Source: Gammaproteobacteria bacterium
GTDB lineage: Bacteria; Pseudomonadota; Gammaproteobacteria; JACCYU01
Length of the DNA: 64,000 bases
Direction: 5' to 3'
Assembly (NCBI GenBank): GCA_050740315.1
Contig: JBOIDC010000006.1
Span: forward strand, 2,596 to 66,595
Shown: positions 48,990 through 63,718 of the stretch, one piece after another
How positions within the stretch are numbered: position 1 is the stretch's first letter
Layout of the letters: each line of letters begins with the position of its first letter
Position numbers and translations under genes: made by a program
The notes under the pieces: generated by a model
The model's input: only the letters and a program-made list of their open reading frames with translations
Told to the model about the DNA's origin: nothing
Database searches by the model: none

Positions 48990-51131
48990 CTACTCCGCCC
49001 GCGTCACTTCCACGAGATTATCGTTGTAAGTCGGCGCGTGGCCCATGTTGACGAACGCGTTGGAGCTCACGCAATTCACCGAGCCGTCGCCGCGGTTCCG
49101 GCTGCGCCAGTAGCCTAACGTCGCGACCACCACACCCGCGTTCACGTCGTCGGTGATCCGCGCCTGCGCCTGAAAGCCGCCGCGGTCGTTGAAGACCTTC
49201 ACCCACTCCCCTTCCTCGATGCCGCGCGCGGCCGCGTCGGCCGCGTTGATCAGCACGAACTGCGCCCCCTGACCGTTGACCTTCTTCGCCTCGTTGGCGT
49301 AGCAGGAATTCAGAAAGCCGTGACTCTTGGGCGAGACGATGTTGAGCGGGAATCTCTGCGCAAGCGCCGGGTCGTTGTGCGCGTTCTCTCTTGGCGGCAC
49401 GTAGCCGGGCACCGGATCGATGGGCTCGCCGCCCTGCTCTGCTTCGTACATCTGCCGGAACGTCGGCGCCACGAAGTTGCCGTTCGCCGCCAGACTGGAT
49501 ACCAATTCGCACTTGCCGGACGGCGTCGGAAAATTACCTTTCTGGTGCGGCGTACGATTGTCGGGCGCGCCGTTGTTCAGATGCGCGTAGCCGCGGCTCA
49601 GGAAAGTCTCCATGGTGATGCCCTGCATCTGCGGCGCGCTCCAGTCCACGTAATGTTCGATCATTTCCTTATCCGAGCGCTTGAACTGCGCATCGTCGAA
49701 GCCGAACATGGCGGCCAGCCGCCGGAAGATCTCGGTGTTCGACGCGCACTCGCCCTGCGGTTCGATGGCTTTCTGGTTCAAAGTCCAGTAAAAATGCCCC
49801 CAGGAGAACATCATGTCGTCGTGCTCGCCGGCCATGGTCGCGGGCAGGATGACATCGGCATACGACGCGGTGTCGGTGATGAAGTGCTCGGCGGCGACGG
49901 TGAACAAATCCTGGCGCGCGAGGCCTTGCGCGATCTTGTCGGTCTCCGGCGCCTGCGACATCGGGTTCGCGTTATAGACCATCAGCGACTTGATCGGCGG
50001 ATCGAGCTTCAATTCGCCGGTGAGCGCGGCGCCGAGCTGCAAGGTATTGACCACCCGCGTGCCGGGCTTGATCCACTCGGGACGGCACACGCGATCCCAA
50101 TGCGCGGGAAATTCCCAGATCGGCATCTGCAACAGCCCGCCGCCCACGTGCCGCCACGCGCCCGTCAGCGCCGGAATGCAGCACACGGCGCGGATGGTCT
50201 GGCCCCCGCCGGCGGAACGCTCCAGCGCCACGCCCAGGCGAATCACCGAAGCCCCGGCGCGATGGAACTCGCGCGCTAACGCGCGGATGTCGTCCGCGGC
50301 CACGCCCGTAATCTTCTCGGCGTTCTCCGGCGTGAACTCGCGCGCGCGTTCTTTCAATTGATCGAAACCGACCGTGTATTTCTCGATGTAATCGTGATCC
50401 AGCAGGTCTTCGTTGATCAGCACGTTGATGAACGCCATGGCGAGCGCGCCGTCGGTGCCGGGCCTGGGCGCGATGTGCCAGTCGGCCTCTTTGGCCGTAC
50501 GCGAACGGAAGGCATCGATCACGACCACCTTGGCGCCGCGCTTGTGGGCTTCGCGGATGATGCGCCAGTGATGAATGTTGGTGCTGACGCTGTTGCAGGC
50601 CCACAGCACGATGTATTTCGAATGAACGAAACTCTCCGGATCGACGCCGCCGGTCGGGCCCACGGTGAGCAGCCACGCGGTGGATGAGCCGGACGCGCAG
50701 AACGTTTTCTCGCACACCGTCGCGCCCAGCCTGTTGAAGAACGCGTCACCCACGGTCAGGCCCTGCAACAAGCCTTCGTTGCCGAGATAGTTGTAAGGCA
50801 GGATGGCCTGCGCGCCGTGCTGGTCAATGATCTCCGTCCAGCGCCGCTTGATCGTGGTCAGCGCCTCGTCCCAGGTGATGCGCAGGTACTGACGGCTGCC
50901 CTTGGGCCCGTTGCGCTTGAGCGGATACAGCACGCGCTCGGCGTTGTAATGATGATCGTGATAATCCTTGAGCTTCACGCACAGGCTCCCATGCGTGAAC
51001 GGATGATCGGGATTGCCGCGCACCTCCACCAGCCGCCCGTCTCTTACCTTGTAAAGCATCGAGCAGGTGTCCGGGCAGTCGTGCGGACAACCGCCAAAGA
51101 AGGTTTGTTCCAGAGGTGTCGCGGTCGCCAT
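48990..51131 (-). CDS. molybdopterin-dependent oxidoreductase (MopB superfamily, single subunit)
   Basis: N-terminal 4Fe-4S CPHDCPDTC...C. MopB domains. 713 aa. Confidence 0.75.
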   Translation of the reverse strand: MATATPLEQTFFGGCPHDCPDTCSMLYKVRDGRLVEVRGNPDHPFTHGSLCVKLKDYHDHHYNAERVLYPLKRNGPKGSRQYLRITWDEALTTIKRRWTEIIDQHGAQAILPYNYLGNEGLLQGLTVGDAFFNRLGATVCEKTFCASGSSTAWLLTVGPTGGVDPESFVHSKYIVLWACNSVSTNIHHWRIIREAHKRGAKVVVIDAFRSRTAKEADWHIAPRPGTDGALAMAFINVLINEDLLDHDYIEKYTVGFDQLKERAREFTPENAEKITGVAADDIRALAREFHRAGASVIRLGVALERSAGGGQTIRAVCCIPALTGAWRHVGGGLLQMPIWEFPAHWDRVCRPEWIKPGTRVVNTLQLGAALTGELKLDPPIKSLMVYNANPMSQAPETDKIAQGLARQDLFTVAAEHFITDTASYADVILPATMAGEHDDMMFSWGHFYWTLNQKAIEPQGECASNTEIFRRLAAMFGFDDAQFKRSDKEMIEHYVDWSAPQMQGITMETFLSRGYAHLNNGAPDNRTPHQKGNFPTPSGKCELVSSLAANGNFVAPTFRQMYEAEQGGEPIDPVPGYVPPRENAHNDPALAQRFPLNIVSPKSHGFLNSCYANEAKKVNGQGAQFVLINAADAAARGIEEGEWVKVFNDRGGFQAQARITDDVNAGVVVATLGYWRSRNRGDGSVNCVSSNAFVNMGHAPTYNDNLVEVTRAE

Positions 51132-51353
51132 GCTGCCTCCTGATTATTGTATAGGGCCTTGAACGGATCAGTGGTTCTTACGCCCACGCCTCGCCGGTGT
51201 CAACAGGATTGGCTAGCGGCGGGAGCTAATCCGCCAGGACAGGGACCCCTCTTAATAGCGACTATGCGCAATCCGAAAGACTAGTCTCTATTTTTTAGCG
51301 CGAAGAGGCTCAGAACGTTGCGGTTTTTCCGTTACCCTCCCCGGTATCACAAT

Positions 51354-52337
51354 TTACCCGTTTCTTATTGCCCATGACGACAGCGACTTTCGGCGCTCGC
51401 GAGGCGAGATTCCGAATCTCCGCCGGAAGCTGCGGCTGAAATGGGCGACATCGCTGAACCCCCAGGTGAAAGCGATTTCCGTAATGCTTTGGTTGCCGGT
51501 GCTTGGGTCGCCAAGCGCCCGCTCACACGCGTCGAGTCGCCGCGCCCAGATCCAGCGGTCGAGCGTGGTTGCCTCCGGCTGGAATACCTTGTGCAGGTAG
51601 CTAGGAGACAATCCAAGATCGCGGGCGATCGTGCTGACCTTAAGCTCGGGGTCGTCAAGGTGCGCGATCACGTAAGCCTTGATACGCGCCACTTGTTTAT
51701 CGCTCGATCTCGCAGCCGGGAGATCCATATCGCGCAGGGCGCGCAATTCGCCGACAAGCACGCCCAGTAGGCCATCCGCGATATCCAACGCGACGCCAGG
51801 ATGCCACGATCCGCCCTCATCGCAAACGGTATGCACCATCTGCAGCAACATCCGGGCCGGCCCGTCCGCAGCCGGAGCCGTTATTGCCGTAAGTGTCTCG
51901 CAGCCTCTTAACCGCGAGGCCAATGTCGGACGCGGTATTCTAAGTGTGATCAGCTGGTAATCCTCGTCCATTACCAGCTCGTAGGGGCGCGTGCTGTCAG
52001 AAAGCACGAACTCGCCCGGATTCACAATCGCTTCGCGCCCATCCTGATGTAAACGGGAAACGCCTTTGAGTTGAAGGCAGACGAGAAAGAAATCCTCGGC
52101 TGACCTGGCGATCTGCCGGCGCGAACGCGTGATTCGCTTAGCAAAGTGTGCCACGGCGAGAACCTGGGTCAGTGAAAGCATCGCGAGGTCCCGATGCAGT
52201 ATCGAGCCCGTAAATTCGTCGCGGTTGAAGATGCGGAAATCCAGTTCGACCAACCGATCGCTAGCGGCCTCTTTCCAAGCCGCCAAGCGCTGACCCGGCG
52301 GCACGTTTAGGGTGGAAAATCTCTCGGCGCATCCCAT
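51354..52337 (-). CDS. AraC-family transcriptional regulator
   Basis: C-terminal AraC HTH (ITEIAFTWGFSDVAHFSRSFRRRFGISP). Divergent from the ABC transporter operon. Confidence 0.75.
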   Translation of the reverse strand: MGCAERFSTLNVPPGQRLAAWKEAASDRLVELDFRIFNRDEFTGSILHRDLAMLSLTQVLAVAHFAKRITRSRRQIARSAEDFFLVCLQLKGVSRLHQDGREAIVNPGEFVLSDSTRPYELVMDEDYQLITLRIPRPTLASRLRGCETLTAITAPAADGPARMLLQMVHTVCDEGGSWHPGVALDIADGLLGVLVGELRALRDMDLPAARSSDKQVARIKAYVIAHLDDPELKVSTIARDLGLSPSYLHKVFQPEATTLDRWIWARRLDACERALGDPSTGNQSITEIAFTWGFSDVAHFSRSFRRRFGISPRERRKSLSSWAIRNG

Positions 52338-52510
52338 GTTTTCTCCTTGAGCAAAGTGGACTCTCGATCAACGATTGATTCACTACCGAACAAGAACGTT
52401 CGGTGGCTGCCGTTTACGCTAGGGCCTGTTTCTGGGGCATGGTTTATACCATCGCATGCACAACTCGTGATCTCGGCCTTTCCCAAAAATTATCCAATTT
52501 ACTTACGGCG

Positions 52511-53584
52511 ATGGCAAACCGCTTGAGAAGGAGGCAACTGCTTGTTGCTAGACCCCGTGGCGGTGTAGTAGAAGGCACTCCACCCACTGGCCGTCGGACG
52601 TCTGTCTTGCGCATTCGGGAAGGGTTTGCACGCTTCGGTCAAGAACAAACCGTCGTGCTGATCGCCGTGATGCTGGCAGTTGTTTTCGCCATCATGCTGC
52701 CCGATTTCGTCTCTTGGGGCAACGCCATGGCGCTGTTCCGCAGCGTGTCCGTCTTGGGCGTGCTCGCGCTCGGTATGGCTTTAGTCATGATCGGCCGCGG
52801 CATCGATCTATCGCAGGTCGCGATCGCCCTGGTCTCCGCGGGAACTGCCGTCAGCTTAATGATCAATGGTATCGCCATGCCCATCGCGCTTCTTGCAGGA
52901 TTTGCGACCGCGCTCGGCTCAGGCACGCTCAATGGCGCCATCATCGCGTATCTCGAGGTGCCTCCGCTATTAACGACCCTGGCGAGCGCATTCCTCTTTA
53001 TCGGTATTGCCCGCGTGTGGCTGTTTGATTCAGCAATCATCAGTGTTCCGGCAGACAGCGCGGCCATTCTAGCGCTCGGGCAGCAATGGCTGGGTGCGCC
53101 CGTTCCGCTGATTGTCTTCATCGTGTGCGCGCTCGTTGTGCACCTGTTCTTGTCGCGCACGGTGCCCGGACGCTTCATCTACGCCCATGGCGACAACGCA
53201 GAGGCTGCCCGACTGTCCGGGCTTCCGGTGCATGGCATTACCCTGCTCGAATACAGCATGTCCGCCATCATTGGCTACGTCGCCGGTCTGCTCATGATCG
53301 CTTCGACTGCAATGGTCGACCTAAACACCGCCAACTCAACCTTGATCTTCGAAGTGATTCTGGTCGTGATCCTGGGCGGCGTAAGCCTCGCAGGCGCGCG
53401 TGGAAGCGTCGGGAGTGTACTGGCGGGCACGCTGCTGATCGGTGTGCTGCTGAACGGCATGATCCTGATGGACTTGAGTTATCAGCTCCAGAACATCATC
53501 ACGGGCGGCGTGCTCTTGATCGCAATCGTGTTGGACAGCTGGCTTCATCCGCGTGATGAAGAGACAGCTCGGCAAGGCGATTAG
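52511..53584 (+). CDS. sugar ABC transporter permease (CUT2/RbsC-like)
   Basis: About 10 TM segments with the RbsC-type pattern. Start uncertain; listed ORF begins at 52403. Confidence 0.65.
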   Translation: MANRLRRRQLLVARPRGGVVEGTPPTGRRTSVLRIREGFARFGQEQTVVLIAVMLAVVFAIMLPDFVSWGNAMALFRSVSVLGVLALGMALVMIGRGIDLSQVAIALVSAGTAVSLMINGIAMPIALLAGFATALGSGTLNGAIIAYLEVPPLLTTLASAFLFIGIARVWLFDSAIISVPADSAAILALGQQWLGAPVPLIVFIVCALVVHLFLSRTVPGRFIYAHGDNAEAARLSGLPVHGITLLEYSMSAIIGYVAGLLMIASTAMVDLNTANSTLIFEVILVVILGGVSLAGARGSVGSVLAGTLLIGVLLNGMILMDLSYQLQNIITGGVLLIAIVLDSWLHPRDEETARQGD

Positions 53585-53624
53585 TGTTATGGGTTGCTCT
53601 TCCAATTAAGAAACAGGAGATTCC

Positions 53625-54629
53625 ATGAGAATCAAAAAGTCAGTCAAGTCCCTCGTGCTGGCGGCCACAGCGACGTTGTCCGCAGTGGCACTCGCTCAGC
53701 CGGATCCGCGCGCCCAGATACCGATCGACTTCGACAATGCGATCAAAAGAAAGACCGTTGCCTGGGTTCCGCTCACCCTCAGCACCCCGCTTGGCATCAT
53801 ATGGACTGACGTCATGCGCCAGAACTTCGAGAAGTACGGCATCGAATTCATCGTCCGTGACCCGAATTTCGACACGGACGCCCAACTGCAGGCGGTCACC
53901 TCGCTAATCAACGAAAAGCCCGATGTCCTGGTCGTGCAGAACGCTAATGTATCCCTGCTCACCAGAGAGCTGAAGCGGGCGATGGACGAGGGCATCTTTG
54001 TGATACAGGTGAACATGATGTCGAATCAGACGTCGGACGCGTACGTCGGTGTGGATAACGTCGACAGTGGCCGGATCATCGCCACGGACATCGTGGCCGA
54101 ATGCGGCGGGGGCAAGAGCTCCGGCAAGGTGGCGCTCGTGGCGGGCGAGCCGACCTCCGCGGGCAGCCTCGAGCAGCTCAAGGGAGCGATGGAGGTGTTC
54201 GATGCCAATGATTCGATCGAGGTGGTCTCGACCCAGGCGGCGAACTGGGACAGCAACAAGGCTTACCAAATCACCGCGACCGTCCTCCAGCAGCATCCGG
54301 ACCTCTGCGCGACCTATGGCTTCTGGGGTGTCATGCAGCAGGGTGCGGCCCGCGCGGTCGAGGCGGCGGGGCTTGAAGGCAAGGTCAAGGTGTATGCGTC
54401 CAGCGGCGGGGTCAGCTCGGATTGCGACATGGTCGAGCAGGGGCTTTTCCACAAAGTCCTGTCATATCGGGCAGATTTCCAGGGTCAGCAAATCACGGAT
54501 GCCGTCCTCACCCTTTTGCAAGGCGACGATGAGCCCGGCACAAAGAACCTCGTCTACCTCTCCAACAACTACTGGGTCGAGAACGAAGCGGATCGCAGCT
54601 ATTGCTACGACCTTCCGGCGTCTAATTAG
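53625..54629 (+). CDS. sugar ABC transporter periplasmic substrate-binding protein (RbsB-like)
   Basis: Signal peptide MRIKKSVKSLVLAATATLSAVALAQ. Periplasmic-binding-protein type I fold pattern. Confidence 0.7.
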   Translation: MRIKKSVKSLVLAATATLSAVALAQPDPRAQIPIDFDNAIKRKTVAWVPLTLSTPLGIIWTDVMRQNFEKYGIEFIVRDPNFDTDAQLQAVTSLINEKPDVLVVQNANVSLLTRELKRAMDEGIFVIQVNMMSNQTSDAYVGVDNVDSGRIIATDIVAECGGGKSSGKVALVAGEPTSAGSLEQLKGAMEVFDANDSIEVVSTQAANWDSNKAYQITATVLQQHPDLCATYGFWGVMQQGAARAVEAAGLEGKVKVYASSGGVSSDCDMVEQGLFHKVLSYRADFQGQQITDAVLTLLQGDDEPGTKNLVYLSNNYWVENEADRSYCYDLPASN

Positions 54630-55061
54630 AGATCCAGATCGGCCCAAACCCATGAGCAGTCTTGCAAGCGGTGATGGCGTATTTCGGGGTGCAATACATC
54701 CATCGAAGCCATTTTCGATCCTTACTCGCGCCGCCTGCTCACCCAAACAGCCGGCTCGCAAGGGTGGGCATTGCCCGCCAAAGGTAAGGATTGGTCAATG
54801 GGATTTGAGTTACCACGGCTCGGGCGGTGCGCTGGATGTGCGGACTTGTATGCCGGGCAAGAGGCGCCCTTATCCAAAGGAGGCACCAGGATTGCTCGAT
54901 GATGGGGCAGTCCGCCGCTCACCTTAGAGATCTGTACCTGCAAACTATGCGAGTCACGGCTAACGATCTCGAGACCTTCGTGCGATTGGCCGATAATCCT
55001 ACGTCTTGGGCCGTCTACCATGCCACCGTTCGAGTTAAGGCACGGAAGCCAAAGAAGGCAC

Positions 55062-56042
55062 ATGTCACTTAAGGCGGAGTTGCTCGCAATGCGTTGGCTG
55101 AAGCCTGCCGTACCCTTTCTCGTGATGTGCCTTCTGTTCGGCGTATTTGCGCTCGAGGTGCCGAATTACTTGAGCATTGTCAACCTGCAGCAACTCACGC
55201 GCGACTTCGCCGAGCCGGGCCTGGTGGCGATCGCCATGGCCATCGTGGTTCTCGCGGGCGGTATCGATCTCTCGGTGGGGGCGACGTTCGCGCTTGCCAA
55301 CTTCGCGGCGCTTTACCTGTTTAGGATCCACGGCCTGCCGCTGGAGGCCGCGGTGCTCGGCACATTGGCCGTCGGACTGGTGATCGGCGCGATCAACGGC
55401 TTTCTCGTGGCCTATGTCAATGCCCGGCCCTTCCTCACGACCTTGGCGATGCTGCTGATTCTGCGCGCGAGCTACGACATGGTGACGAACGCGTACGTCC
55501 TTGAGATCGCCGGCGCGATGCACACGAGCCGCACTTGGGATTTCTTAGGCATGGGAACGATGCTCGGTATCCCGGTGAACATGGCCGCGCTCATCGTCGT
55601 CGGGTCGCTGGCGTATTTATTCCTCACTCGCGTTCGCCCCGGGTTGCACATCATGGCCGTCGGCGCCAGCCGCAAGGCGGCGCGCCACGCCGGCATTGAC
55701 GTGCAGCGTACGTTGTTCCTTGCCTATGTTCTCAGTGGGCTCGTTACGGCACTGGCCGGATTGTTCTACGCCGCGCGCCAGAACAGCGCCGGTTCCGACG
55801 CAGGAGAAGGCTGGGAGCTCACCGCGCTGACGGCCGTCATCGTGGGCGGCATAAGCCTCGCCGGCGGTCGTGGCACCATCGTTGGCGCGATCATTGGCGC
55901 GGCGATACTATTCATTCTTTCAAGCGGACTGTTGCGCATGAACGTGCCAGGCGATCTGACCTCAGCGCTCATCGGCTTGATCCTGCTTGTGGCTGTAGCT
56001 ATTACCCTCCAGCGAGTAAAGAACAAAGGCGCGGCCCATTGA
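55062..56042 (+). CDS. sugar ABC transporter permease (second, RbsC-like)
   Basis: Multi-TM permease pattern; overlaps the ATPase gene start. Confidence 0.65.
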   Translation: MSLKAELLAMRWLKPAVPFLVMCLLFGVFALEVPNYLSIVNLQQLTRDFAEPGLVAIAMAIVVLAGGIDLSVGATFALANFAALYLFRIHGLPLEAAVLGTLAVGLVIGAINGFLVAYVNARPFLTTLAMLLILRASYDMVTNAYVLEIAGAMHTSRTWDFLGMGTMLGIPVNMAALIVVGSLAYLFLTRVRPGLHIMAVGASRKAARHAGIDVQRTLFLAYVLSGLVTALAGLFYAARQNSAGSDAGEGWELTALTAVIVGGISLAGGRGTIVGAIIGAAILFILSSGLLRMNVPGDLTSALIGLILLVAVAITLQRVKNKGAAH

Positions 56043-57583
56043 AATCATCCGTTGAGGCAGCGGCATGCGCAACGCGCGAAGGTGCACCGATCTTGCGTAT
56101 TACGGGCGGCAGCAAAAGGTATGGCGGTACTCATGTTCTTGACAATGTTGATTTCGAGATTTATGCCGGAGAAGTCCACGCGCTCCTGGGCGAGAATGGC
56201 GCGGGGAAGTCGACCTTGGCCAAGATCATCGCTGGGGCAGTACGCTTAAGCTGCGGCAGCTTGACCATCAGCGGAGAGGTAAAGCATTTCCGCTCACCGG
56301 CTGACTCCTTGAGCGCCGGTGTAGCGATGGTCTATCAGGAAACCAGCTTGATCCCGACGATGACCGTCGCACAGAACCTGCAGTTGGGGCATGAGCCGTG
56401 GATCAATCGCTCATCCTCGATCAACGACCGCGCACGGCGAATACTTCAATCGTTGCACTTCAACGTCGATCCGCGCGCGGTGGTCGAAAAGCTAAGCCTG
56501 GCACAACGCCAGATGGTCGAAATCGCGCGCGCCGTCCAGTCGAATGCTCGCGTGATTATCTTCGACGAGCCAACCGCCAGTCTGTCACCCGCGGAACGCC
56601 GACGATTCTTCGGCCTGCTGTGCACGCTGCGCAAGCGGGGCTTAGGGTTAGTGTTCATAACCCACGCGCTGGAAGAGGCACTAAAGGTCTCGGATCGGAT
56701 CACCGTGTTACGCGATGGCAAACGCCTGACGTGCGCGCCAGTCGCAGCGTTCGACCGTCCGACATTGGTCCGGCTGACGGTCGGACGCGACTTCGTAAAC
56801 ACGCGCCACACAACGCAGGGAGGTACACGCGGCGAGAAGGTGCTGGCGGTTGAAAGCGTGACCATGGGTACGTTGGTGAAGAACATGTCTTTCTCGCTCT
56901 ACGCGGGGGAGGTCGTCGGTATCACCGGGCTCATCGGTTCCGGCCGTAGCGAGATCGCCAAGATTGTCGCCGGCGTGTTCCAGCGCGATCGCGTGCGTGG
57001 AGGAATGATCTGTCTGCGCGGCAGGCCGGTCCGTTACCGAACACCGGCCCGGGCCATTCGCGATGGTATCGTCTACATCACCGAGGAACGCAAACTCAAT
57101 GGATTCTTCGAGACGATGACTGCCGACGATAACATCTATCTTGGCTCGCTGACGGCCCACCGTGGTTGGCGCTTCCTGTATTCGCGCACGGCGCGAAAAC
57201 GGATTAGCGATTACTGGATCGAGAAGCTGTCGATCAAATCCTCGGACCGCAGGCTCAAGCTCAACGGATATTCTGGCGGTAATCAGCAAAAAACCGTGTT
57301 GGCTAAGGCACTCGTACAGGAACCGCAAATTGTTTTTTTTGACGAGCCCACCCGCGGTGTCGACGTCGGAGCCATTCCGCAGATCCACGAGATCATTCGG
57401 ATGCTCGCGCGCGAGGGCAAGGCCGTGGTAGTGATATCGTCCTACCTGCCCGAAATTCTTAGCGTCTCCGATCGGATTTTGGTGGCGCGAAAAGGGCGCA
57501 TCGTCGAGGAATTCGATGCGGCATCGGCGACCGAAGACAAGGTCATGCACGCTGCGACTTACTGCGCCTCAGGCTTGATGTAA
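56039..57583 (+). CDS. sugar ABC transporter ATP-binding protein (tandem NBDs)
   Basis: Two Walker A sites (GENGAGKST; GLIGSGRS), two signature motifs (LSLAQRQM; YSGGNQQK), Walker B. Confidence 0.8.
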   Translation: MKSSVEAAACATREGAPILRITGGSKRYGGTHVLDNVDFEIYAGEVHALLGENGAGKSTLAKIIAGAVRLSCGSLTISGEVKHFRSPADSLSAGVAMVYQETSLIPTMTVAQNLQLGHEPWINRSSSINDRARRILQSLHFNVDPRAVVEKLSLAQRQMVEIARAVQSNARVIIFDEPTASLSPAERRRFFGLLCTLRKRGLGLVFITHALEEALKVSDRITVLRDGKRLTCAPVAAFDRPTLVRLTVGRDFVNTRHTTQGGTRGEKVLAVESVTMGTLVKNMSFSLYAGEVVGITGLIGSGRSEIAKIVAGVFQRDRVRGGMICLRGRPVRYRTPARAIRDGIVYITEERKLNGFFETMTADDNIYLGSLTAHRGWRFLYSRTARKRISDYWIEKLSIKSSDRRLKLNGYSGGNQQKTVLAKALVQEPQIVFFDEPTRGVDVGAIPQIHEIIRMLAREGKAVVVISSYLPEILSVSDRILVARKGRIVEEFDAASATEDKVMHAATYCASGLM

Positions 57584-57871
57584 CGCATACAATCGCCCCC
57601 CGATTCGCGACGCAGCCTGCCCAAGCCACGCCAGACAGTGCCGCCGCTGCTTTTCATTCAACCAGCCCGTTGCGTGTGTGCCGGGCAAGACACGAAGCCC
57701 CGGCTACCGACTGACAAAGTCGCCTTTGACAATCATGATGCCGTGCATAAAAATCCGGCAACTACACTGGGGAAGCGAGCGGCGAGTCATTTTGGATGTG
57801 CATCTTCTCCGCGTCTTAAGCAGTGGCACATTGGGGCGCCGAATCAGTAATTGCGTCCTTGATGTTTACCA

Positions 57872-58501
57872 ATGGAACAAGATCCCAATCAAAAAGCAGG
57901 GCTTCCCCTCCGAATCTTCCGTTGCGAGGCGAGTACGGAGTACGCGAAGCGCGTTATGGCGTTAGCCGAGATCAACTTCTCGTTGCAGTGCCTCAGCCGT
58001 CTCCGGGAGATGAATCAATGCGTGGATAGTGACCCGCTTTTACGCGAGGCATTATGGAACGCGGCGATTGTGAGGCTATTTAGTGTGTTTGATGGGCCAA
58101 ATGCCCTCAAGCTCAATCTTCTCAATGAAATGCCTGAGGGAGCTCACGAAGCATTTCAGTTCTTTCTCAATTACAGAAACAAACACATTGCACATAAAGT
58201 TAATCCAATTGATCAAGTGAAAGCAGGCGTGATCTTGAGCGACCCTACCGAAACAGAACGACGGGTTTTGGGTGTCGGTAATCTCGGAACGCAGGACGCT
58301 TCTTTTGCTGATCCAACTTTCGTGAGCAGCCTTGGAGACTTCGCGGCCGCCCTATCGAGGCGGGTTTGCATTGAAGCTAAGCTGTGGATCGAACGCACGC
58401 TTGATGAAGCTAAATCGAGGGATATCGATGAACTGTACAGACTCCGCTCATTGCGCGTAGTAGTCCGAAATAGCGGACATCTTAAGAATAGTGGAACCTA
58501 A
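57872..58501 (+). CDS. hypothetical protein, low-GC orphan with a candidate HEPN Rx5H motif
   Basis: 209-aa ORF in a locally AT-rich segment. NYRNKHIAH fits Rx4-6H. Start uncertain; alternatives at 57956 and 58003. Confidence 0.45.
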   Translation: MEQDPNQKAGLPLRIFRCEASTEYAKRVMALAEINFSLQCLSRLREMNQCVDSDPLLREALWNAAIVRLFSVFDGPNALKLNLLNEMPEGAHEAFQFFLNYRNKHIAHKVNPIDQVKAGVILSDPTETERRVLGVGNLGTQDASFADPTFVSSLGDFAAALSRRVCIEAKLWIERTLDEAKSRDIDELYRLRSLRVVVRNSGHLKNSGT

Positions 58502-58642
58502 TATTCCGCTGCAGCCGATCGCCCGGGGAACCTTCGCTTTGCACAAGCATCTGTGGCCGGCAGCGGCTGAACTTGGTTGGTTGGGCGCGGGATCGGACAA
58601 TCTGCCTTGAAATCGCGGACATGAAGCCATAGGAATCAACGA

Positions 58643-59815
58643 GTGGCCGCACTTCGACCTTACGGGTGCCGCGAGGATCCGGCCGCGCCGCTGGGCCCGC
58701 TGGCGCCGGACCTTACGCGGGCCACGACCTTTGCGTACCCGACCGCCGAAGAAGTCCGCGCCGTTGGCGCCGGCGAACTGCCCGGCGAGTTCTACCCCCG
58801 TTACGGCCACCCTGCCGGCCGCCTCTTCGAACAGAAGGTCGCCGAACTCGAAGGCGCCGACGGCGCCGTGTCTTTCGGCTCAGGCATGGCGGCGCTCCAC
58901 GGCGTCTTTTGTGGCCTCTTGCAGAAAGGGGATGTCATCGCCGTCAGCCGCCATGTTTACGGCGGCGTCGAGGGGCTCGTCGCGAAGGACCTTCCACGCT
59001 TTGGCATCGAGGTGCGTCGCTTCGACCCATTCGACGAACGCTCACTGGAGCAAGCCGTCGCAGGAACCGTAAGGCTGATCCATGTCGAGACGCCGACCAA
59101 CCCACTGTGCCGGGTCGTCGATCTGAAGCGAATCGCCGCCGCAGCTCGCCGGTGCGGCGCCTGGCTGTCTGTGGATGCGACCTTTCTCCCGCCGCCATTC
59201 CAGCGCCCTGTGACTCACGGGGCCGATCTCGTGATGCACAGCGCCACGAAGATCATCGGCGGCCATTCGGATGCTCAGGCCGGGATCGTTTCCAGCCGTC
59301 ACGAACTACTGGAGCGACTCGAGGCATTCCGTCGCCGCACCGGGGCTGTTCTGGCGCCTGATACAGCGTGGCTACTGGTTCGTTCACTCGCAACACTCGA
59401 TTTACGCGCGCGCAAGGCGACGGAAAACGCTTCGAAGGCGGCGCATTTTCTCGAAGAGCGGCGCGGTAACGGCGGCAGAGTGGCGCGCGTTCACTATCCG
59501 GGACTGGCTCAGCATCCCGACCACCACATAGCACGCCAGTACATGGAAACGTTCGGCTTTGTGCTCGCCTTCGAGGTTGCGGGCGGCCTGCCCGTCGCCG
59601 TGGAAGTCTACAATCGATTGCGCGTCATCGCGCGCGCCGTATCCTTGGGCGGCGTCGAAACATTGGCCTCCATTCCGCTCCATACCTCGCATGCGACGAT
59701 GTCCGCTGACGAGCGGCAAAGCGTGGGCATTGCCGATGGCCTCATTCGACTCTCGTTCGGGATCGAGCCGTATGAGGTGCTGGCCGCCGATCTCGCAGCC
59801 GCATTGAATGCATGA
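58643..59815 (+). CDS. Cys/Met-metabolism PLP-dependent enzyme (cystathionine gamma-synthase/lyase family)
   Basis: PLP-lysine region SATKIIGGHSD. Overall trans-sulfuration enzyme pattern. Start uncertain. Confidence 0.7.
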   Translation: MAALRPYGCREDPAAPLGPLAPDLTRATTFAYPTAEEVRAVGAGELPGEFYPRYGHPAGRLFEQKVAELEGADGAVSFGSGMAALHGVFCGLLQKGDVIAVSRHVYGGVEGLVAKDLPRFGIEVRRFDPFDERSLEQAVAGTVRLIHVETPTNPLCRVVDLKRIAAAARRCGAWLSVDATFLPPPFQRPVTHGADLVMHSATKIIGGHSDAQAGIVSSRHELLERLEAFRRRTGAVLAPDTAWLLVRSLATLDLRARKATENASKAAHFLEERRGNGGRVARVHYPGLAQHPDHHIARQYMETFGFVLAFEVAGGLPVAVEVYNRLRVIARAVSLGGVETLASIPLHTSHATMSADERQSVGIADGLIRLSFGIEPYEVLAADLAAALNA

Positions 59816-60521: not shown

Positions 60522-60737
60522 ATGATCAATGAATTCACAGCAATTTTCGAGCGCGATGGCGAGTGGTATATCGCCTACTGCCCAGAGATTCCAGGCGCCA
60601 ACGGTCAGGGCCGGACGAAAGAAGAAGCCCGGGAAAGCCTCGCCGCGGCCATCGCACTGATTTTGAATGACCGCAGGGAAGACGCGCTTCGAGGTCTCCC
60701 CGCTGACGCTGAGCAGGACATGGTGCGAGTTGGGTGA
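60522..60737 (+). CDS. hicB: HicB-family antitoxin
   Basis: MINEFTAIFERDGEWYIAYCPEIPGANGQGRTKEEARESLAAAIALIL is the HicB/UPF0150 RNase-H-like fold. Confidence 0.75.
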   Translation: MINEFTAIFERDGEWYIAYCPEIPGANGQGRTKEEARESLAAAIALILNDRREDALRGLPADAEQDMVRVG

Positions 60738-60916
60738 AGCGAGGCGTTCTGCTTCGGCACCTTCGGCGCAACGGCTGTTATCTTAAGCGCGAAGGCACCT
60801 CGCATTCTCTCTGGTGCAATCCGGCGACGGGGTCAGTTGAGGCCGTGCCTCCTCGCGAAAAAAATACGTCGTCGACTGTCTGTGGCCGAGATTGGCGGAT
60901 GAACGCACCTGATTAA
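60734..60916 (+). CDS. hicA: HicA-family mRNA interferase toxin
   Basis: LLRHLRRNGCYLKREGTSHSLWCNPATGSVEAVPP matches HicA (dsRBD-like). ATGA-coupled to hicB. A7 tract near the 3' end. Confidence 0.7.
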   Translation: MKRGVLLRHLRRNGCYLKREGTSHSLWCNPATGSVEAVPPREKNTSSTVCGRDWRMNAPD

Positions 60917-61007: not shown

Positions 61008-62459
61008 ATGTTCGAGCAAGCCTTCAAAAACATCGACGACGTGCTGTGGAAGGAAGCCGGCTGCACCACCGAGCTGGACTACACCGAGCAGACGTCGTGG
61101 ATGCTGTTTCTGAAGTATCTGGACGACCTGGAGCACGAGCGTTCGGCGAAAGCCGAACTGCTCGGCAAGCCTTACACCCCGATCATCGATGACGAACACC
61201 GCTGGTCGCGCTGGGCCGCGCCCAAGACCGCCGACGGCAGATTCGACCATAACAACGCGCTGACCGGCCCTGACCTGATCGATTACGTCGATACCAAGCT
61301 GTTCCCGTATCTGATGGGCTTCAAGCAGCGCGCGACCCGCCCGGACACCATCGAATACAAGATCGGCGAAATCTTCGGCGAGATCCGAAGCAAGTTCCGC
61401 AGCGGGTATTCGCTACGCGATGCACTGGAGCACGTGGACGCGCTGCGCTTCCGCTCGCAGCAGGAAAAGCATGAGCTGTCGCACCTCTACGAAGCCAAGA
61501 TCAGGAACATGGGCAACGCCGGGCGCAACGGCGGCGAATACTACACGCCGCGCCCGCTCATCCGCGCCATGATCAAGGTCATCAAGCCCAAAATCGGCGA
61601 GCGCATCTATGACGGCGCCGTGGGTTCGGCGGGCTTTCTGTGCGAGTCCTACGACTACATGCGCCCGCAGGTGCAGAATGCGGCGCAGCTCGACGCGCTC
61701 AAGAACCACACGTTCTACGGCAAGGAGAAAAAGAGCCTCGCCTACGTCATCGGCATCATGAACATGATCCTGCACGGCATAGAGGCGCCCAACATCGTCC
61801 ACATGAACACGCTGGCCGAGAACGTCAGCGACATTCAGGACAAGGATCGCTTCGACGTGATCCTCGCCAATCCGCCCTTCGGCGGCAAGGAACGCAAGGA
61901 GGTGCAGCAGAACTTCCCCATCCGAACCGGCGAGACGGCGTTTCTGTTTCTGCAGCACTTCATCAAAATGCTCAAAGCCGGCGGACGCGCCACCATCGTC
62001 ATCAAGAACACGTTTCTGTCGAACTCGGACGGCGCCTCGCGCGCGCTGCGGCAGGAACTGCTGGAAAGCTGCAACCTGCACACGGTGCTGGATTGCCCGG
62101 GCGGCACCTTCCTCGGCGCGGGCGTGAAGACCGTGGTGCTGTTCTTCGAGAAAGGCGCGCCGACACGCAAGGTGTGGTACTACCAGCTCGATCCCGGCCG
62201 CAGCCTCGGCAAGACCACGCCGCTCAATGACGACGACCTGAAAGAGTTCGTCGCGCTGCAGGCCAGCTTCGCGGAATCGCCCAAATCATGGTCAGTGGAT
62301 ATGGCCGACATCGATCCGGCGAATTTCGATTTGTCCGTCAAGAACCCGAACAAGGCCGAGGAGGCGCCGCTGCGTCAGCCGGAGGAAATTATTGAGGAGA
62401 TGACCCTGCTCGATGAGGAGAGCGCGAAGATTCTGGAAGGCATTCGGGAGATGCTTTGA
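61008..62459 (+). CDS. hsdM: type I restriction-modification N6-adenine DNA methyltransferase subunit
   Basis: N-terminal HsdM_N. AdoMet motif I (DGAVGSAGFL). Motif IV NPPFG. Confidence 0.9.
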   Translation: MFEQAFKNIDDVLWKEAGCTTELDYTEQTSWMLFLKYLDDLEHERSAKAELLGKPYTPIIDDEHRWSRWAAPKTADGRFDHNNALTGPDLIDYVDTKLFPYLMGFKQRATRPDTIEYKIGEIFGEIRSKFRSGYSLRDALEHVDALRFRSQQEKHELSHLYEAKIRNMGNAGRNGGEYYTPRPLIRAMIKVIKPKIGERIYDGAVGSAGFLCESYDYMRPQVQNAAQLDALKNHTFYGKEKKSLAYVIGIMNMILHGIEAPNIVHMNTLAENVSDIQDKDRFDVILANPPFGGKERKEVQQNFPIRTGETAFLFLQHFIKMLKAGGRATIVIKNTFLSNSDGASRALRQELLESCNLHTVLDCPGGTFLGAGVKTVVLFFEKGAPTRKVWYYQLDPGRSLGKTTPLNDDDLKEFVALQASFAESPKSWSVDMADIDPANFDLSVKNPNKAEEAPLRQPEEIIEEMTLLDEESAKILEGIREML

Positions 62460-63718
62460 TGGGAAGTTGGGAGACTGCAAAGCTTGGTGAGGTTTGCCAG
62501 ATGATTAAGAGAGGCGTCACGCCCAAGTATGTTGAAGCGGGCGGAATGCCAGTGATTAATCAAAAGTGCATTAGAAATCACTTGGTCAACTTCAGTTTAG
62601 CTCGAAGACATAATCCTCTGGCTAAGCCGGTCGACAAGGAAAGGCATATCCAAGTAGGTGACGTGCTCGTTAACTCTACGGGCACAGGAACCTTAGGTCG
62701 CCTCGCGCAGGTTCGTGAATTGCCACAACAATCTGCTACTGTAGACACCCACGTTACGATTGTGCGGCCGCTCCCCGGAAAGTTCTATCCTGATTTTTTT
62801 GGCTACATGCTTACGACAATCGAGGAGGACATTGCTTCTAGCGGCGAAGGAGCAAGCGGCCAAACAGAACTTTCTCGGAGCACCCTTGAGCAGAAATTCA
62901 AAGTCTGCTTCCCTCGATCTCTAGAAGAACAAAAGCGCATTGTCGCCATTCTCGATGAGGCATTTGAGGGGATCGCGGCTGCGGTCGCCAATGCCGAAAA
63001 GAACCTTGCCAACGCCCGCGAACTGTTCGAAAGCTACCTGAATTCCGTCTTCACCCGGAAGGGCGAAGGGTGGGTGGAAAGCGCCCTCGGTGATCTTATT
63101 GAGATAAAACACGGGTTCGCTTTCAAGAGCGAATTTTTCAAAAGCGCGGGCAAGTATGTACTACTTACGCCTGGGAACTTCTATGAAGAAGGCGGTTATC
63201 GAGATCGAGGTGAGAAACAGAAGTTCTATGTTGGCGAAATTCCTCGTGACTTTATACTCAGAAAAGACGATTTTCTAATCGCGATGACAGAGCAGGCAGC
63301 GGGTCTGCTGGGGAGCTCAATGATCGTTCCGCAGGAAGATAAATTTCTCCACAACCAGCGGCTAGGCCTAGTGATAGTGAAACCCACTACTTGTTGGTGC
63401 AATGAGTTTTTCTTTCATGCCTTTAATACGAAAAAATTTCGAAAGGCGGTACACGATGATGCTTCCGGCGTGAAGGTGCGGCATACATCTCCAAAGAAAC
63501 TAGGACGTTTGATGATTTCCTATCCTCCGTCGCTATCGGAGCAGGAACGAATTGCAGCTAGTCTTGATGATGTTCTGCTCAAATCCAAAAGCCTTGAAAC
63601 TATATATCGACAAAAGCTTGAAAACTTCGGCCAGCTCAAACAATCCATCCTCCAAAAAGCTTTTTCCGGCGAACTCACGTCCAAACTCGAGCGAACCCTG
63701 AAAGAGGCGCTTGGATGA
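62456..63718 (+). CDS. hsdS: type I R-M specificity subunit (two TRDs)
   Basis: Low-GC gene overlapping hsdM. Central and C-terminal conserved coiled regions (…LDEAFEGIAAAVANAEKNLANARELFESYL…, …QKLENFGQLKQSILQKAF…). Confidence 0.8.
   Translation: MMGSWETAKLGEVCQMIKRGVTPKYVEAGGMPVINQKCIRNHLVNFSLARRHNPLAKPVDKERHIQVGDVLVNSTGTGTLGRLAQVRELPQQSATVDTHVTIVRPLPGKFYPDFFGYMLTTIEEDIASSGEGASGQTELSRSTLEQKFKVCFPRSLEEQKRIVAILDEAFEGIAAAVANAEKNLANARELFESYLNSVFTRKGEGWVESALGDLIEIKHGFAFKSEFFKSAGKYVLLTPGNFYEEGGYRDRGEKQKFYVGEIPRDFILRKDDFLIAMTEQAAGLLGSSMIVPQEDKFLHNQRLGLVIVKPTTCWCNEFFFHAFNTKKFRKAVHDDASGVKVRHTSPKKLGRLMISYPPSLSEQERIAASLDDVLLKSKSLETIYRQKLENFGQLKQSILQKAFSGELTSKLERTLKEALG

What the first reader, a model, noticed from the sequence alone, without database searches (positions are those of the whole stretch)
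57600..58520. Low-GC orphan ORF with a candidate HEPN Rx5H motif at the entrance of a defence-island-like stretch
- The segment between the ABC transporter and the PLP-enzyme gene is visibly AT-richer than its surroundings.
- It encodes a 209-aa all-helical protein with no obvious family.
- Its NYRNKHIAH motif fits the HEPN Rx4-6H RNase signature, placed about 80 residues into a predicted helical domain.
- Downstream within 6 kb lie hicBA and a type I R-M system.
- A stand-alone HEPN protein in this context could be an abortive-infection or toxin module.
- This is pattern-level inference only.
Basis: inference. Interest (0 to 1): 0.55.

Follow-up and report, generated by a model that had tools for sequence, protein, structure and literature searches.

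The report
Solo AbiU2-like HEPN candidate gene
The low-GC gene is real and belongs to a large, unannotated family of single-gene proteins that look like distant relatives of the AbiU2 branch of HEPN RNases, a class used in phage defence; its close relatives travel as integron gene cassettes. No fold match or experiment confirms RNase activity.

Summary
The ORF at 57872-58501 (+, 209 aa) is real. It has GC 0.50 against a window mean of 0.62.

It is not an orphan:
- It has 20 close homologues.
- A profile search finds 685 clusters across many phyla.
- None is annotated.

A bare Rx4-6H pattern is expected about once per protein by chance. Here, though, R102-x-K104-x-x-A107-H108-x-x-N111 is the most conserved feature of the whole family. 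A pLDDT 95 model places it at the end of a core helix and the start of the following loop, where HEPN motifs sit.

The query has no Pfam hit. However, 24 of 119 family members give sub-threshold hits to HEPN_AbiU2, while every other Pfam family is hit by one member at most.

Evidence against:
- Foldseek finds no HEPN or any other significant neighbour in PDB or BFVD.
- The query clade lacks four residues conserved in the wider family.

No partner gene is conserved, so an MNT/antitoxin pairing is not supported.

At least five close homologues sit in integron-cassette settings. In the window, the gene exactly fills a 654-nt variable slot behind a conserved promoter. Relatives carry a cupin or a ParE-like gene in that slot. 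The window copy has no attC.

Verdict: a distant AbiU2-like HEPN, probably a self-contained trigger-activated RNase. Moderate interest.

The parts
57872..58501 (+). 209-aa ORF; member of an unannotated family of about 200-aa proteins distantly related to HEPN_AbiU2
   Evidence: ORF. Homologues. Alignments. AF2 models. AbiU2 sub-threshold signal.
58175..58204 (+). Codons for R102-N-K-H-I-A-H108-K-V-N111, the candidate Rx5H catalytic motif with a conserved extension
   Evidence: In the 119-member alignment: R 115/119, D/N 109/119, K 109/119, A 109/119, H 118/119, N 110/119. In the close clade, R102, H108 and N111 are invariant. The motif lies at the end of helix 91-107.
57968..57970 (+). Codon for E33, the family's conserved acidic residue (D in 115 and E in 4 of 119 members) in helix 1
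57853..58506 (.). 654-nt variable slot. It equals the ORF plus 19 nt upstream and 5 nt downstream. Relatives carry a different gene here.
   Evidence: blastn against L068, L095 and L096. Junction alignments. L068 carries a cupin and L095 a ParE-like ORF.
57677..57852 (+). Conserved intergenic element shared with relatives whatever the cargo. It carries a sigma-70-like promoter pointing into the slot.
   Evidence: 84% identity to L068 1993-2170. Promoter-like site TTGACA-N17-AAAAAT at 57726-57754. No Rfam family.
58496..58502 (+). ACCTAAT, a 6-of-7 remnant of the attC R'' box ACCTAAC. In cassette-borne homologues that box overlaps the stop codon.
   Evidence: The window has no attC-like hairpin downstream (z +0.5 and +0.9).
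60522..60916 (+). hicB and a hicA-like ORF (context only, not part of the module)
   Evidence: Translations. Only the 71-aa hicB is called as a gene in L010 and L011.
61008..63718 (+). Type I R-M genes hsdM and hsdS (context only). hsdR lies beyond the window end.
   Evidence: hsdM is 89% conserved in L095 and L096.

Best explanation
The ORF encodes a stand-alone, distant AbiU2-like member of the HEPN superfamily.

Shown:
- It is a conserved protein-coding gene of foreign composition.
- Its family's dominant conserved feature is R-[D/N]-K-H-[I/V]-A-H-x-x-N, at the end of a core helix.
- The mobile unit holds this one gene only.
- Close homologues lie in integron-cassette settings.
- In this genome the gene fills a promoter-proximal slot that holds other cargo genes in relatives.

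Inferred:
- The protein dimerises, so that R102 and H108 from the two subunits form a metal-independent RNase site.
- The site is kept inactive until a trigger such as phage infection or stress.
- It then cleaves cellular or phage RNA and arrests growth, as a single-gene abortive-infection or dormancy effector.

The confidence of 0.5 refers to HEPN-superfamily relatedness with an RNase-type role. A specifically anti-phage function is less certain, roughly 0.35.
For: - Real, conserved gene: 20 homologues at 46-65% identity and 685 clusters at E<=1e-3 in an exhaustive profile search.
- Motif conservation: R102 in 115/119, D/N103 in 109/119, K104 in 109/119, A107 in 109/119, H108 in 118/119, N111 in 110/119, and an acidic residue at position 33 in 119/119.
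[quoted passage not shown] The AF2 model (pLDDT 94.8, pTM 0.86) has helices at 19-48, 55-71 and 91-107, with an insert at 72-90. A beta-hairpin at 115-140 and a helix at 148-181 follow.
- A beta-hairpin right after the motif has precedent in Csx1.
- Pfam at E<=10: HEPN_AbiU2 (PF18734) is hit by 24 of 119 members (best E 0.012). All 63 other families are hit by one member each.
- Context echoes that reported for AbiU2 (Sel1-repeat neighbours, R-M operons). Sel1 genes adjoin the homologue in L001 and L002. Type I MTase or specificity genes are among the immediate neighbours, and a type I R-M system lies 2.5 kb away in the window.
- One family member (P0077) is a tandem dyad of the domain with one degenerate motif. 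Such dyads are listed for Swt1 HEPN proteins (PMC3710099).
- The gene is solo. No neighbour family recurs across 51 loci, and the variable unit in the window is the ORF plus 24 nt.
- Precedents: a V. mimicus integron cassette with an HEPN AbiU2 domain protects against T4 and T7 (10.64898/2026.03.17.712381). The V. cholerae cassette 'Esos' has only a HEPN-like domain (10.1101/2024.07.02.601686).
Against: - The query gives no Pfam, PADLOC, NCBIfam or PDB-sequence hit even at E<=10. None of the 119 members reaches E<=0.01 for any HEPN model.
- Profiles of the family find nothing among PDB sequences.
- Foldseek with both models finds no HEPN structure in the top 50. The best E-values are 0.13 and 0.078, and TM-scores normalised to the query are at most 0.36 for PDB. 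BFVD also gave nothing significant.
- I could not see where in the sequence the sub-threshold AbiU2 matches align. The 119 members are related to each other, so their weak hits are not independent.
- The conserved acidic residue is in helix 1 and not in an Ex3[K/R] context.
- The query's clade lacks R71, C72, H95 and R208, which are conserved in the wider family.
- The 3D arrangement of the helices and the dimer were not inspected.
- There are no activity data.
Confidence: 0.5

Rival explanations
1. The protein is not a HEPN. It belongs to a structurally new helical family with a beta-hairpin, either an enzyme or a binding protein, whose conserved polar set happens to include an R...H pair. 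In the wider family that set is D33, D54, R71, H95, R102, K104, H105, H108, N111, E114 and R208. One example would be a metal-dependent hydrolase using several histidines.
For: - A high-confidence model has no significant neighbour in PDB or BFVD.
- The family has more conserved polar residues than a typical HEPN.
- No HEPN model passes threshold.
- A bare Rx4-6H pattern is expected by chance.
Against: - Only HEPN_AbiU2 recurs among the sub-threshold Pfam hits, in 24 of 119 members against 1 for every other family.
- The motif composition (polar residue after R, A before H) and its position at a helix end fit HEPN.
- The query clade lacks H95, R71 and R208, so those residues are not essential to whatever it does.
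- No DinB-like or other metal-binding family was hit.
Confidence: 0.27
2. The protein has a HEPN fold, but its role is not phage defence. It could be a stress-induced dormancy RNase, or a selfish addiction-type element that stabilises cassette arrays or genomic slots.
For: - Anantharaman et al. proposed stress-dormancy roles for integron HEPN cassettes.
- In relatives the same slot holds a ParE-like toxin.
- TA cassettes sit in the same arrays, for example BrnT/CopG in L002.
Against: - No antitoxin or partner accompanies the gene, which addiction normally requires.
- Published single-gene HEPN cassettes were found through anti-phage activity.
Confidence: 0.15
3. The protein is the toxin of a two-gene toxin-antitoxin or HEPN-MNT pair whose partner has been overlooked.
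For: HEPN-MNT is a very common pairing (PMC7641770, abstract). Small ORFs exist upstream, for example 57638-57850.
Against: - The upstream region 57677-57852 is conserved in relatives that carry unrelated cargo, so it is not specific to this gene.
- The mobile unit is the ORF plus 24 nt.
- No neighbour family recurs in 51 loci, and the neighbour-family tables (top 25 shown per library) listed no nucleotidyltransferase and no family in more than 3 of 97 immediate neighbours.
- The motif is followed by K or S, not the Y of the Rx4HxY form.
Confidence: 0.04

Closest known systems
AbiU2 family of HEPN domains (Pfam PF18734; Lactococcus AbiU2; V. mimicus integron cassette HNPBCG_15845)
   Same: - Both are stand-alone proteins with a conserved R...H motif.
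- It is the only Pfam family hit recurrently by members of this family (24 of 119).
- Sel1-repeat and R-M neighbours are reported for AbiU2 and are seen here in some loci.
- An AbiU2-domain integron cassette confers phage resistance.
   Different: - No member reaches the Pfam threshold. The best E is 0.012, and the query has no hit at E<=10.
- PGAP calls plasmid-borne members 'hypothetical protein'.
- The region aligned to the AbiU2 model is unknown.
- The extended motif and the beta-hairpin could not be compared, because no AbiU2 sequence or structure was available.
Integron-cassette HEPN family (PDB 3jrt)
   Same: It is a HEPN protein carried as a single-gene integron cassette in Gammaproteobacteria. 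Close homologues of the window gene are cassette-borne too.
   Different: Single-sequence and profile searches of PDB sequences found no match at E<=10. 3jrt is not among the top 50 Foldseek matches. This is therefore a different family.
HepT/MntA (HEPN-MNT) type II toxin-antitoxin systems
   Same: Both have a small HEPN-type protein with an R...H motif that may act as an RNase toxin.
   Different: The neighbour-family tables listed no nucleotidyltransferase and no partner recurs. The spacing is Rx5H without the trailing Y. The protein is about 200 aa with a beta-hairpin, against about 130 aa (from my own knowledge, not checked here).
Esos, a V. cholerae chromosomal-integron anti-phage cassette with only a HEPN-like domain
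   Same: It is a single-gene integron cassette whose only recognisable feature is a HEPN-like domain, and it causes growth arrest or death on infection.
Csx1-type HEPN domains of CRISPR-Cas systems
   Same: [quoted passage not shown]
   Different: This family has no CARF domain and no CRISPR context. Only one weak PADLOC Csx21 hit was seen, in one fused member.

Membership tests
HEPN superfamily (criteria of Anantharaman et al. 2013, PMC3710099) | Rx4-6H is the most strongly conserved motif of the family | tested here: met
   The spacing is Rx5H. R102 is present in 115/119 and H108 in 118/119 members, and both are invariant in the close clade.
HEPN superfamily (criteria of Anantharaman et al. 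2013, PMC3710099) | The residue after the R is polar (N, D or H) | tested here: met
   D in 68 and N in 41 of 119 members; N in the query.
HEPN superfamily (criteria of Anantharaman et al. 2013, PMC3710099) | The motif lies at the end of core helix 3 and the start of the loop to helix 4 | tested here: met
In the AF2 model (pLDDT 94.8) the helix spans 91-107. R102 lies in its last turns and H108 is the first residue after it.
HEPN superfamily (criteria of Anantharaman et al. 2013, PMC3710099) | A four-helix up-down core with an insert between helices 2 and 3 | tested here: inconclusive
   The order of elements fits: helix 19-48, helix 55-71, insert 72-90, helix 91-107, hairpin, helix 148-181. 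Model coordinates could not be inspected. Foldseek returned only generic helical bundles at TM-scores of 0.36 or less.
HEPN superfamily (criteria of Anantharaman et al. 2013, PMC3710099) | A conserved upstream acidic residue, typically in an Ex3[K/R] motif in helix 2 | tested here: inconclusive
   An acidic residue at position 33 is universal (D in 115, E in 4 of 119). It lies in helix 1 and is not followed by K or R at +4.
HEPN superfamily (criteria of Anantharaman et al. 2013, PMC3710099) | Detectable sequence or fold similarity to a solved HEPN structure | tested here: not met
   No PDB sequence hit. No HEPN among the top 50 Foldseek matches, and nothing at E<=0.001.
HEPN superfamily (criteria of Anantharaman et al. 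2013, PMC3710099) | Metal-independent RNase activity that depends on the R and the H | not testable with these tools
   Requires biochemistry.
Pfam HEPN_AbiU2 (PF18734) | Score above the Pfam gathering threshold | tested here: not met
   The query has no hit at E<=10. None of 119 members hits at E<=0.01.
Pfam HEPN_AbiU2 (PF18734) | Remote relationship shown by recurrent sub-threshold matches | tested here: inconclusive
   24 of 119 members match at E<=10 (best 0.012), while every other family is matched by one member. The aligned region was not seen. A profile-profile test could not be run.
Pfam HEPN_AbiU2 (PF18734) | Reported contexts: Sel1-repeat neighbour, R-M operons | tested here: inconclusive
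   Sel1 genes adjoin the homologue in 2 of 5 close loci, but as separate cassettes. Two or three type I MTase genes occur among 97 immediate neighbours. In the window a type I R-M system lies 2.5 kb away.
Integron-cassette HEPN (PDB 3jrt) | Homology to the 3jrt protein | tested here: not met
   No PDB sequence hit at E<=10 with single-sequence or profile queries. 3jrt is not in the top 50 Foldseek matches.
HEPN-MNT (HepT/MntA) toxin-antitoxin | An adjacent MNT nucleotidyltransferase gene | tested here: not met
   The window neighbours are an ABC ATPase and a PLP enzyme. No neighbour family recurs in 51 loci, and the Pfam neighbour table (top 25 families shown) listed no nucleotidyltransferase family.
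Integron gene cassette (the window copy itself) | A 3' attC site (R''-L''...L'-R' imperfect palindrome) and a GTTRRRY junction 5' of the ORF | tested here: not met
   The window has only ACCTAAT at the stop codon, no GTTRRRY upstream, and no significant hairpin (z +0.5 and +0.9).
Integron gene cassette (close homologues) | A 3' attC site and a GTTRRRY junction 5' of the ORF | tested here: met
   - ACCTAAC overlaps or lies just after the stop codon in L001, L002, L004, L006 and L008.
- GTTAGGT or GTTAAGT lies 15-20 nt upstream of the ATG in four of them.
- Downstream hairpins have z -2.2 to -5.2 in L001, L004 and L008.
- Textbook attC sites occur elsewhere in L002 and L004.

The most novel reading that the evidence does not exclude
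The family is not a HEPN but a new fold and a new kind of nucleic-acid-targeting or signalling enzyme. A pLDDT 95 model has no significant neighbour in PDB or BFVD. The conserved polar set is unusually rich: D33, D54, R71, H95, R102, K104, H105, H108, N111, E114 and R208. The gene spreads as a self-sufficient single-gene integron cassette and is spread across many bacterial phyla. The weak AbiU2 signal would then reflect only a convergent R-D/N-K-x-x-A-H helix end.
Probability: 0.2. Interest if true: 0.6.

Novelty: new member of a known kind. Interest (0 to 1): 0.4.

Why it matters
If the reading is right, at least 685 sequence clusters at 50% identity form an unrecognised sister group of the AbiU2 HEPN RNases. 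They occur in Proteobacteria, Actinomycetota, Chloroflexota, Patescibacteria and other phyla, are labelled 'hypothetical', and are invisible to Pfam, PADLOC and NCBIfam. A profile built from them would improve defence-system annotation.

The family's occurrence as one-gene integron cassettes fits recent reports that integrons stock compact anti-phage genes.

The window also shows a tidy natural experiment. One promoter-proximal slot holds this gene, a cupin or a ParE-like toxin in related genomes, with a GTTAGGC core-site-like junction in one relative and no integrase in sight. This bears on how cassettes settle outside integrons.

None of this overturns current ideas, so interest is moderate.

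Tried and rejected
- **Direct family searches of the query.** Pfam, PADLOC, NCBIfam and PDB sequences gave nothing at E<=10.
- **The same libraries plus PHROGs on 119 members at E<=0.01.** Only unrelated singleton hits appeared, plus phrog_8440, a family of unknown function hit by 39 members.
- **Profile searches of PDB sequences.** The close clade, the wide family and the motif-only region were each used. Nothing relevant was found.
- **Foldseek.** Model 1 against PDB and BFVD, and model 2 against PDB, returned only generic helical bundles.
- **Search for a conserved partner.** I called genes around 51 genomic loci, ran Pfam and PADLOC on 97 immediate neighbours, and ran all-against-all BLAST on neighbours within three genes. 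No neighbour family recurred, so the MNT/antitoxin idea was rejected.
- **Fused members.** They have N-terminal extensions with no known domain. One weak Csx21 hit was judged to be noise.
- **Phage origin.** Only 2 loci were found in 2.9 million IMG/VR contigs and none in INPHARED, so this was rejected as the main habitat.
- **Plasmid hits.** Three records, all annotated as hypothetical or unannotated.
- **Obtaining AbiU2 sequences for hhalign.** The supplements of the HEPN paper and the cassette preprint held none, so no profile-profile test was possible.
- **Riboswitch or sRNA in the conserved upstream element.** No Rfam match.
- **A functional attC in the window.** Rejected: there is no significant hairpin and the boxes are degenerate.
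- **An integron integrase next to the slot.** Rejected: the neighbour in relatives is a molybdopterin oxidoreductase.
Full report
**1. The observation**

The ORF exists as described, at 57872-58501 on the + strand, running from ATG to TAA and encoding 209 aa. The composition dip is real. The ORF has GC 0.497 and GC3 0.514, against a window mean of 0.619 and GC3 of 0.70-0.80 in the ABC-transporter and PLP genes on either side. NYRNKHIAH occupies residues 100-108, which gives R102-x5-H108.

hicB, a hicA-like ORF, hsdM and hsdS lie 2-5 kb downstream. hsdR follows beyond the window end in two other assemblies of the same locus.

Four parts of the description need correction:
- A bare Rx4-6H pattern is expected about 1.0 times in this protein by composition. 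It occurs four times in the neighbouring ABC ATPase, so the motif alone means nothing.
- The protein is not all-helical.
- It is not an orphan.
- It does not abut the R-M/hicBA block.

**2. The family**

No Pfam, PADLOC or NCBIfam model and no PDB sequence matches the query, even at E<=10. A word-indexed search found 20 homologues at 46-65% identity, all unnamed. Within this clade Y101, R102, H108, N111 and P112 are invariant.

An exhaustive profile search found 685 representative clusters at E<=1e-3, of which 180 are at E<=1e-10. Nearly all are stand-alone proteins of about 200-230 aa. A scan of one genome per species found 54 loci in Nitrospirota, Patescibacteria, Actinomycetota, Chloroflexota, Planctomycetota, Acidobacteriota and several proteobacterial classes.

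In a 119-member alignment the conserved residues are as follows.

| Position | Residue | Members out of 119 |
|---|---|---|
| 33 | D (or E) | 115 (plus 4) |
| 34 | L | 107 |
| 62 | W | 100 |
| 69 | Y | 103 |
| 71 | R | 105 |
| 72 | C | 102 |
| 73 | F | 112 |
| 95 | H | 101 |
| 102 | R | 115 |
| 103 | D or N | 109 |
| 104 | K | 109 |
| 105 | H | 94 |
| 107 | A | 109 |
| 108 | H | 118 |
| 111 | N | 110 |
| 114 | E | 98 |
| 208 | R | 107 |

The query's clade keeps the acidic residue at 33 and the R-N-K-H-I-A-H-x-x-N block. It has lost R71, C72, H95 and R208.

**3. Structure**

With the 20-sequence alignment, AF2 gave pLDDT 80. With the 119-sequence alignment it gave pLDDT 94.8 and pTM 0.86. The order of elements in the better model is:
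- helix 19-48
- helix 55-71
- a loop with a short helix, 72-90
- helix 91-107
- a beta-hairpin, 115-122 and 132-140
- helix 148-181

R102 is in the last turns of helix 91-107, and H108 is the first residue after it.

The reference survey of HEPN domains describes the following features (PMC3710099):
- a four-helix up-down core, frequently with an insert between helices 2 and 3;
- a polar N, D or H after the R;
- an upstream acidic residue;
- in Csx1, a beta-hairpin right after the motif.

The model fits these points, except that the acidic residue is in helix 1 and not in an Ex3[K/R] context.

Against this, Foldseek found nothing significant in PDB or BFVD and no HEPN structure in the top 50:

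| Model | Library | Best E-value | Highest TM-score (query-normalised) |
|---|---|---|---|
| first | PDB | 0.13 | 0.36 or less |
| first | BFVD | 0.13 | about 0.46 |
| second | PDB | 0.078 | 0.36 or less |

I could not inspect the coordinates, so the packing of the helices is untested.

**4. Link to a known family**

At E<=0.01 none of the 119 members hits any HEPN model. I then re-ran Pfam on all 119 members at E<=10. HEPN_AbiU2 (PF18734) was matched by 24 members, with a best E of 0.012. Each of the other 63 families listed was matched by a single member.

The members are related to each other, so these hits are not independent. I also could not see which residues align. Still, one family recurring 24 times against a background of singletons is the usual signature of a remote relationship.

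The reported AbiU2 contexts are a Sel1-repeat neighbour and R-M operons. They have echoes here:
- Sel1 genes adjoin the homologue in L001 and L002.
- Type I methylase and specificity genes occur among the immediate neighbours.
- A type I R-M system lies 2.5 kb away in the window.

The separate 'integron cassette HEPN' family (PDB 3jrt) is not this family. No sequence or fold match was found.

**5. A solo gene**

I called genes around 51 genomic loci. Pfam and PADLOC on 97 immediate neighbours showed no recurrent family. The neighbours include the following:
- transposases
- integrases
- relaxases
- a few type I R-M genes
- one YhaV toxin
- one GajB

All-against-all BLAST of neighbours within three genes gave no cluster spanning more than three loci. 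No nucleotidyltransferase or antitoxin was listed among the neighbours (top 25 families shown per library).

One member (P0077, 496 aa) is a tandem dyad of the domain. The first copy carries RDMHVAH and the second is degenerate. This fits a protein that works as a dimer.

The family is rare in phages: 2 loci in IMG/VR and none in INPHARED. However, 39 of the 119 members hit the unannotated phrog_8440.

**6. How the gene moves**

In five distinct metagenomic loci carrying close homologues, the gene ends ...GGA ACC TAA C. The stop codon therefore overlaps or abuts the integron attC R'' box ACCTAAC. In four of these loci a GTTAGGT or GTTAAGT core site lies 15-20 nt before the ATG.

The downstream 65-100 nt fold into hairpins with z-scores of -2.2 to -5.2 in L001, L004 and L008. 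Textbook attC sites occur elsewhere in L002 and L004. The surrounding genes are runs of small same-strand ORFs, typical of cassette arrays. The wider family lacks these signals.

The window copy has only ACCTAAT at the stop codon, no upstream core site and no significant hairpin (z +0.5 and +0.9).

**7. The slot in this genome**

Relatives whose PLP gene is 90-91% identical at protein level (L068, L095, L096) share the following blocks with the window:
- the molybdopterin oxidoreductase gene (window 48990-51184);
- a 176-nt element (57677-57852, 80-84% identity);
- DNA from 58507 (in L068) or 58600 (in L095 and L096) onward.

The stretch between the shared blocks differs. Window 57853-58506, which is the ORF plus 19 nt upstream and 5 nt downstream, is replaced in L068 by a 155-aa signal-peptide cupin. 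In L095 and L096 it is replaced by a weak ParE-like 93-aa ORF.

The left junction in L068 reads GTTAGGC, the canonical integron core site. The window has ATTGCGT at that position.

The shared 176-nt element carries a near-consensus promoter, TTGACA-N17-AAAAAT at 57726-57754, pointing into the slot. It matches no Rfam family. No integrase is adjacent.

The AraC-ABC transporter operon (51185-57676) is also absent from these relatives. hsdM is conserved in L095 and L096. The region is therefore a mosaic of conserved blocks and variable slots. The ORF is an independent single-gene acquisition, not the edge of the R-M island.

**8. Mechanism**

*Shown:*
- a conserved, horizontally acquired one-gene unit;
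- the dominant motif at a helix end;
- no partner gene.

*Inferred:* a HEPN-type, metal-independent RNase whose R102/H108 site is completed by dimerisation. Because the gene is mobilised and kept without an antitoxin, the enzyme must be held inactive until a trigger arrives. Activation would cleave RNA and stop growth.

Two preprints give precedent for exactly this kind of cassette:
- 'Esos' in V. cholerae has only a HEPN-like domain and gives growth arrest or death on infection.
- A V. mimicus cassette with an HEPN AbiU2 domain protects against T4 and T7.

I put HEPN-superfamily relatedness with an RNase-type role at about 0.5, and a specifically anti-phage role at about 0.35.

**9. Rivals**

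- **Not a HEPN, but a new helical enzyme family (0.27).** This is favoured by the empty fold searches and the rich conserved polar set. It is disfavoured by the AbiU2 recurrence, and by the query clade's loss of several of those residues.
- **A HEPN with a stress-dormancy or addiction role rather than defence (0.15).**
- **A hidden toxin-antitoxin pair (0.04).** This is disfavoured because the upstream DNA is shared with relatives that carry other cargo.

**10. Verdict**

The best reading is a new, unannotated branch near the AbiU2 HEPN family. It is mobile as a single-gene integron cassette and sits here in a promoter-fed variable slot.

I rate it a new member of a known kind, interest 0.4. 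A profile-profile search and simple mutational assays would settle the question.

Noticed in passing
window 57677-58642, compared with L068 1993-2990 and L095 1745-2523: A promoter-proximal variable slot lies between a molybdopterin oxidoreductase gene and a Cys/Met PLP-enzyme gene. It holds the 209-aa gene in the window, a secreted cupin in L068 and a ParE-like ORF in L095 and L096. The left junction is shared and reads GTTAGGC in L068. No integrase is nearby. It looks like cassette capture outside an integron.
   Followed up: partly
window 51185-57676: The AraC regulator plus the four-gene ABC sugar-transporter operon is absent from three related metagenomic contigs. There the oxidoreductase gene is followed within about 100 nt by the conserved 176-nt element. 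This is a 6.5-kb insertion or deletion polymorphism.
   Followed up: partly
window 60734-60916: The hicA-like ORF (60 aa) has an atypical C-terminal part. It is not called as a gene in the two other assemblies of this locus, where only hicB is called. It may be decayed.
   Followed up: no
L001 6315-7889: A 524-aa reverse transcriptase, with an RVT_1 hit only, lies immediately upstream of the homologue in a Thiodiazotropha cassette array. It could be an attC-targeting group II intron or a defence-type RT. AbiA is an RT-HEPN fusion, so the adjacency may be worth a look.
   Followed up: no
L001 8702-9193 and L002 5835-7823: Sel1-repeat genes lie directly next to the homologue in two of five close-homologue loci. 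In L002 the gene also carries ankyrin repeats. They appear to be separate cassettes. The HEPN survey lists a Sel1 neighbour as the typical AbiU2 context.
   Followed up: partly
protein P0077 (496 aa), from the exhaustive profile search: The protein is a tandem duplication of the family domain (residues 12-181 and 248-450). Only the first copy keeps the R...H motif. An (NPVAG)n linker joins the copies, and the tail is acidic.
   Followed up: partly
L095 3143-3153 and L096 4620-4630, against window 59262-59461: The PLP-enzyme gene of these relatives lacks about 200 nt present in the window, giving a 327-aa product instead of 390 aa. This suggests an internal deletion or an assembly artefact.
   Followed up: no
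L002 8700-8800: A long perfect palindrome (GGGGTCAGGCTTGCA...TGCAAGCCTGACCCC) lies downstream of the homologue. It is not attC-like and may be a REP-type element.
   Followed up: no
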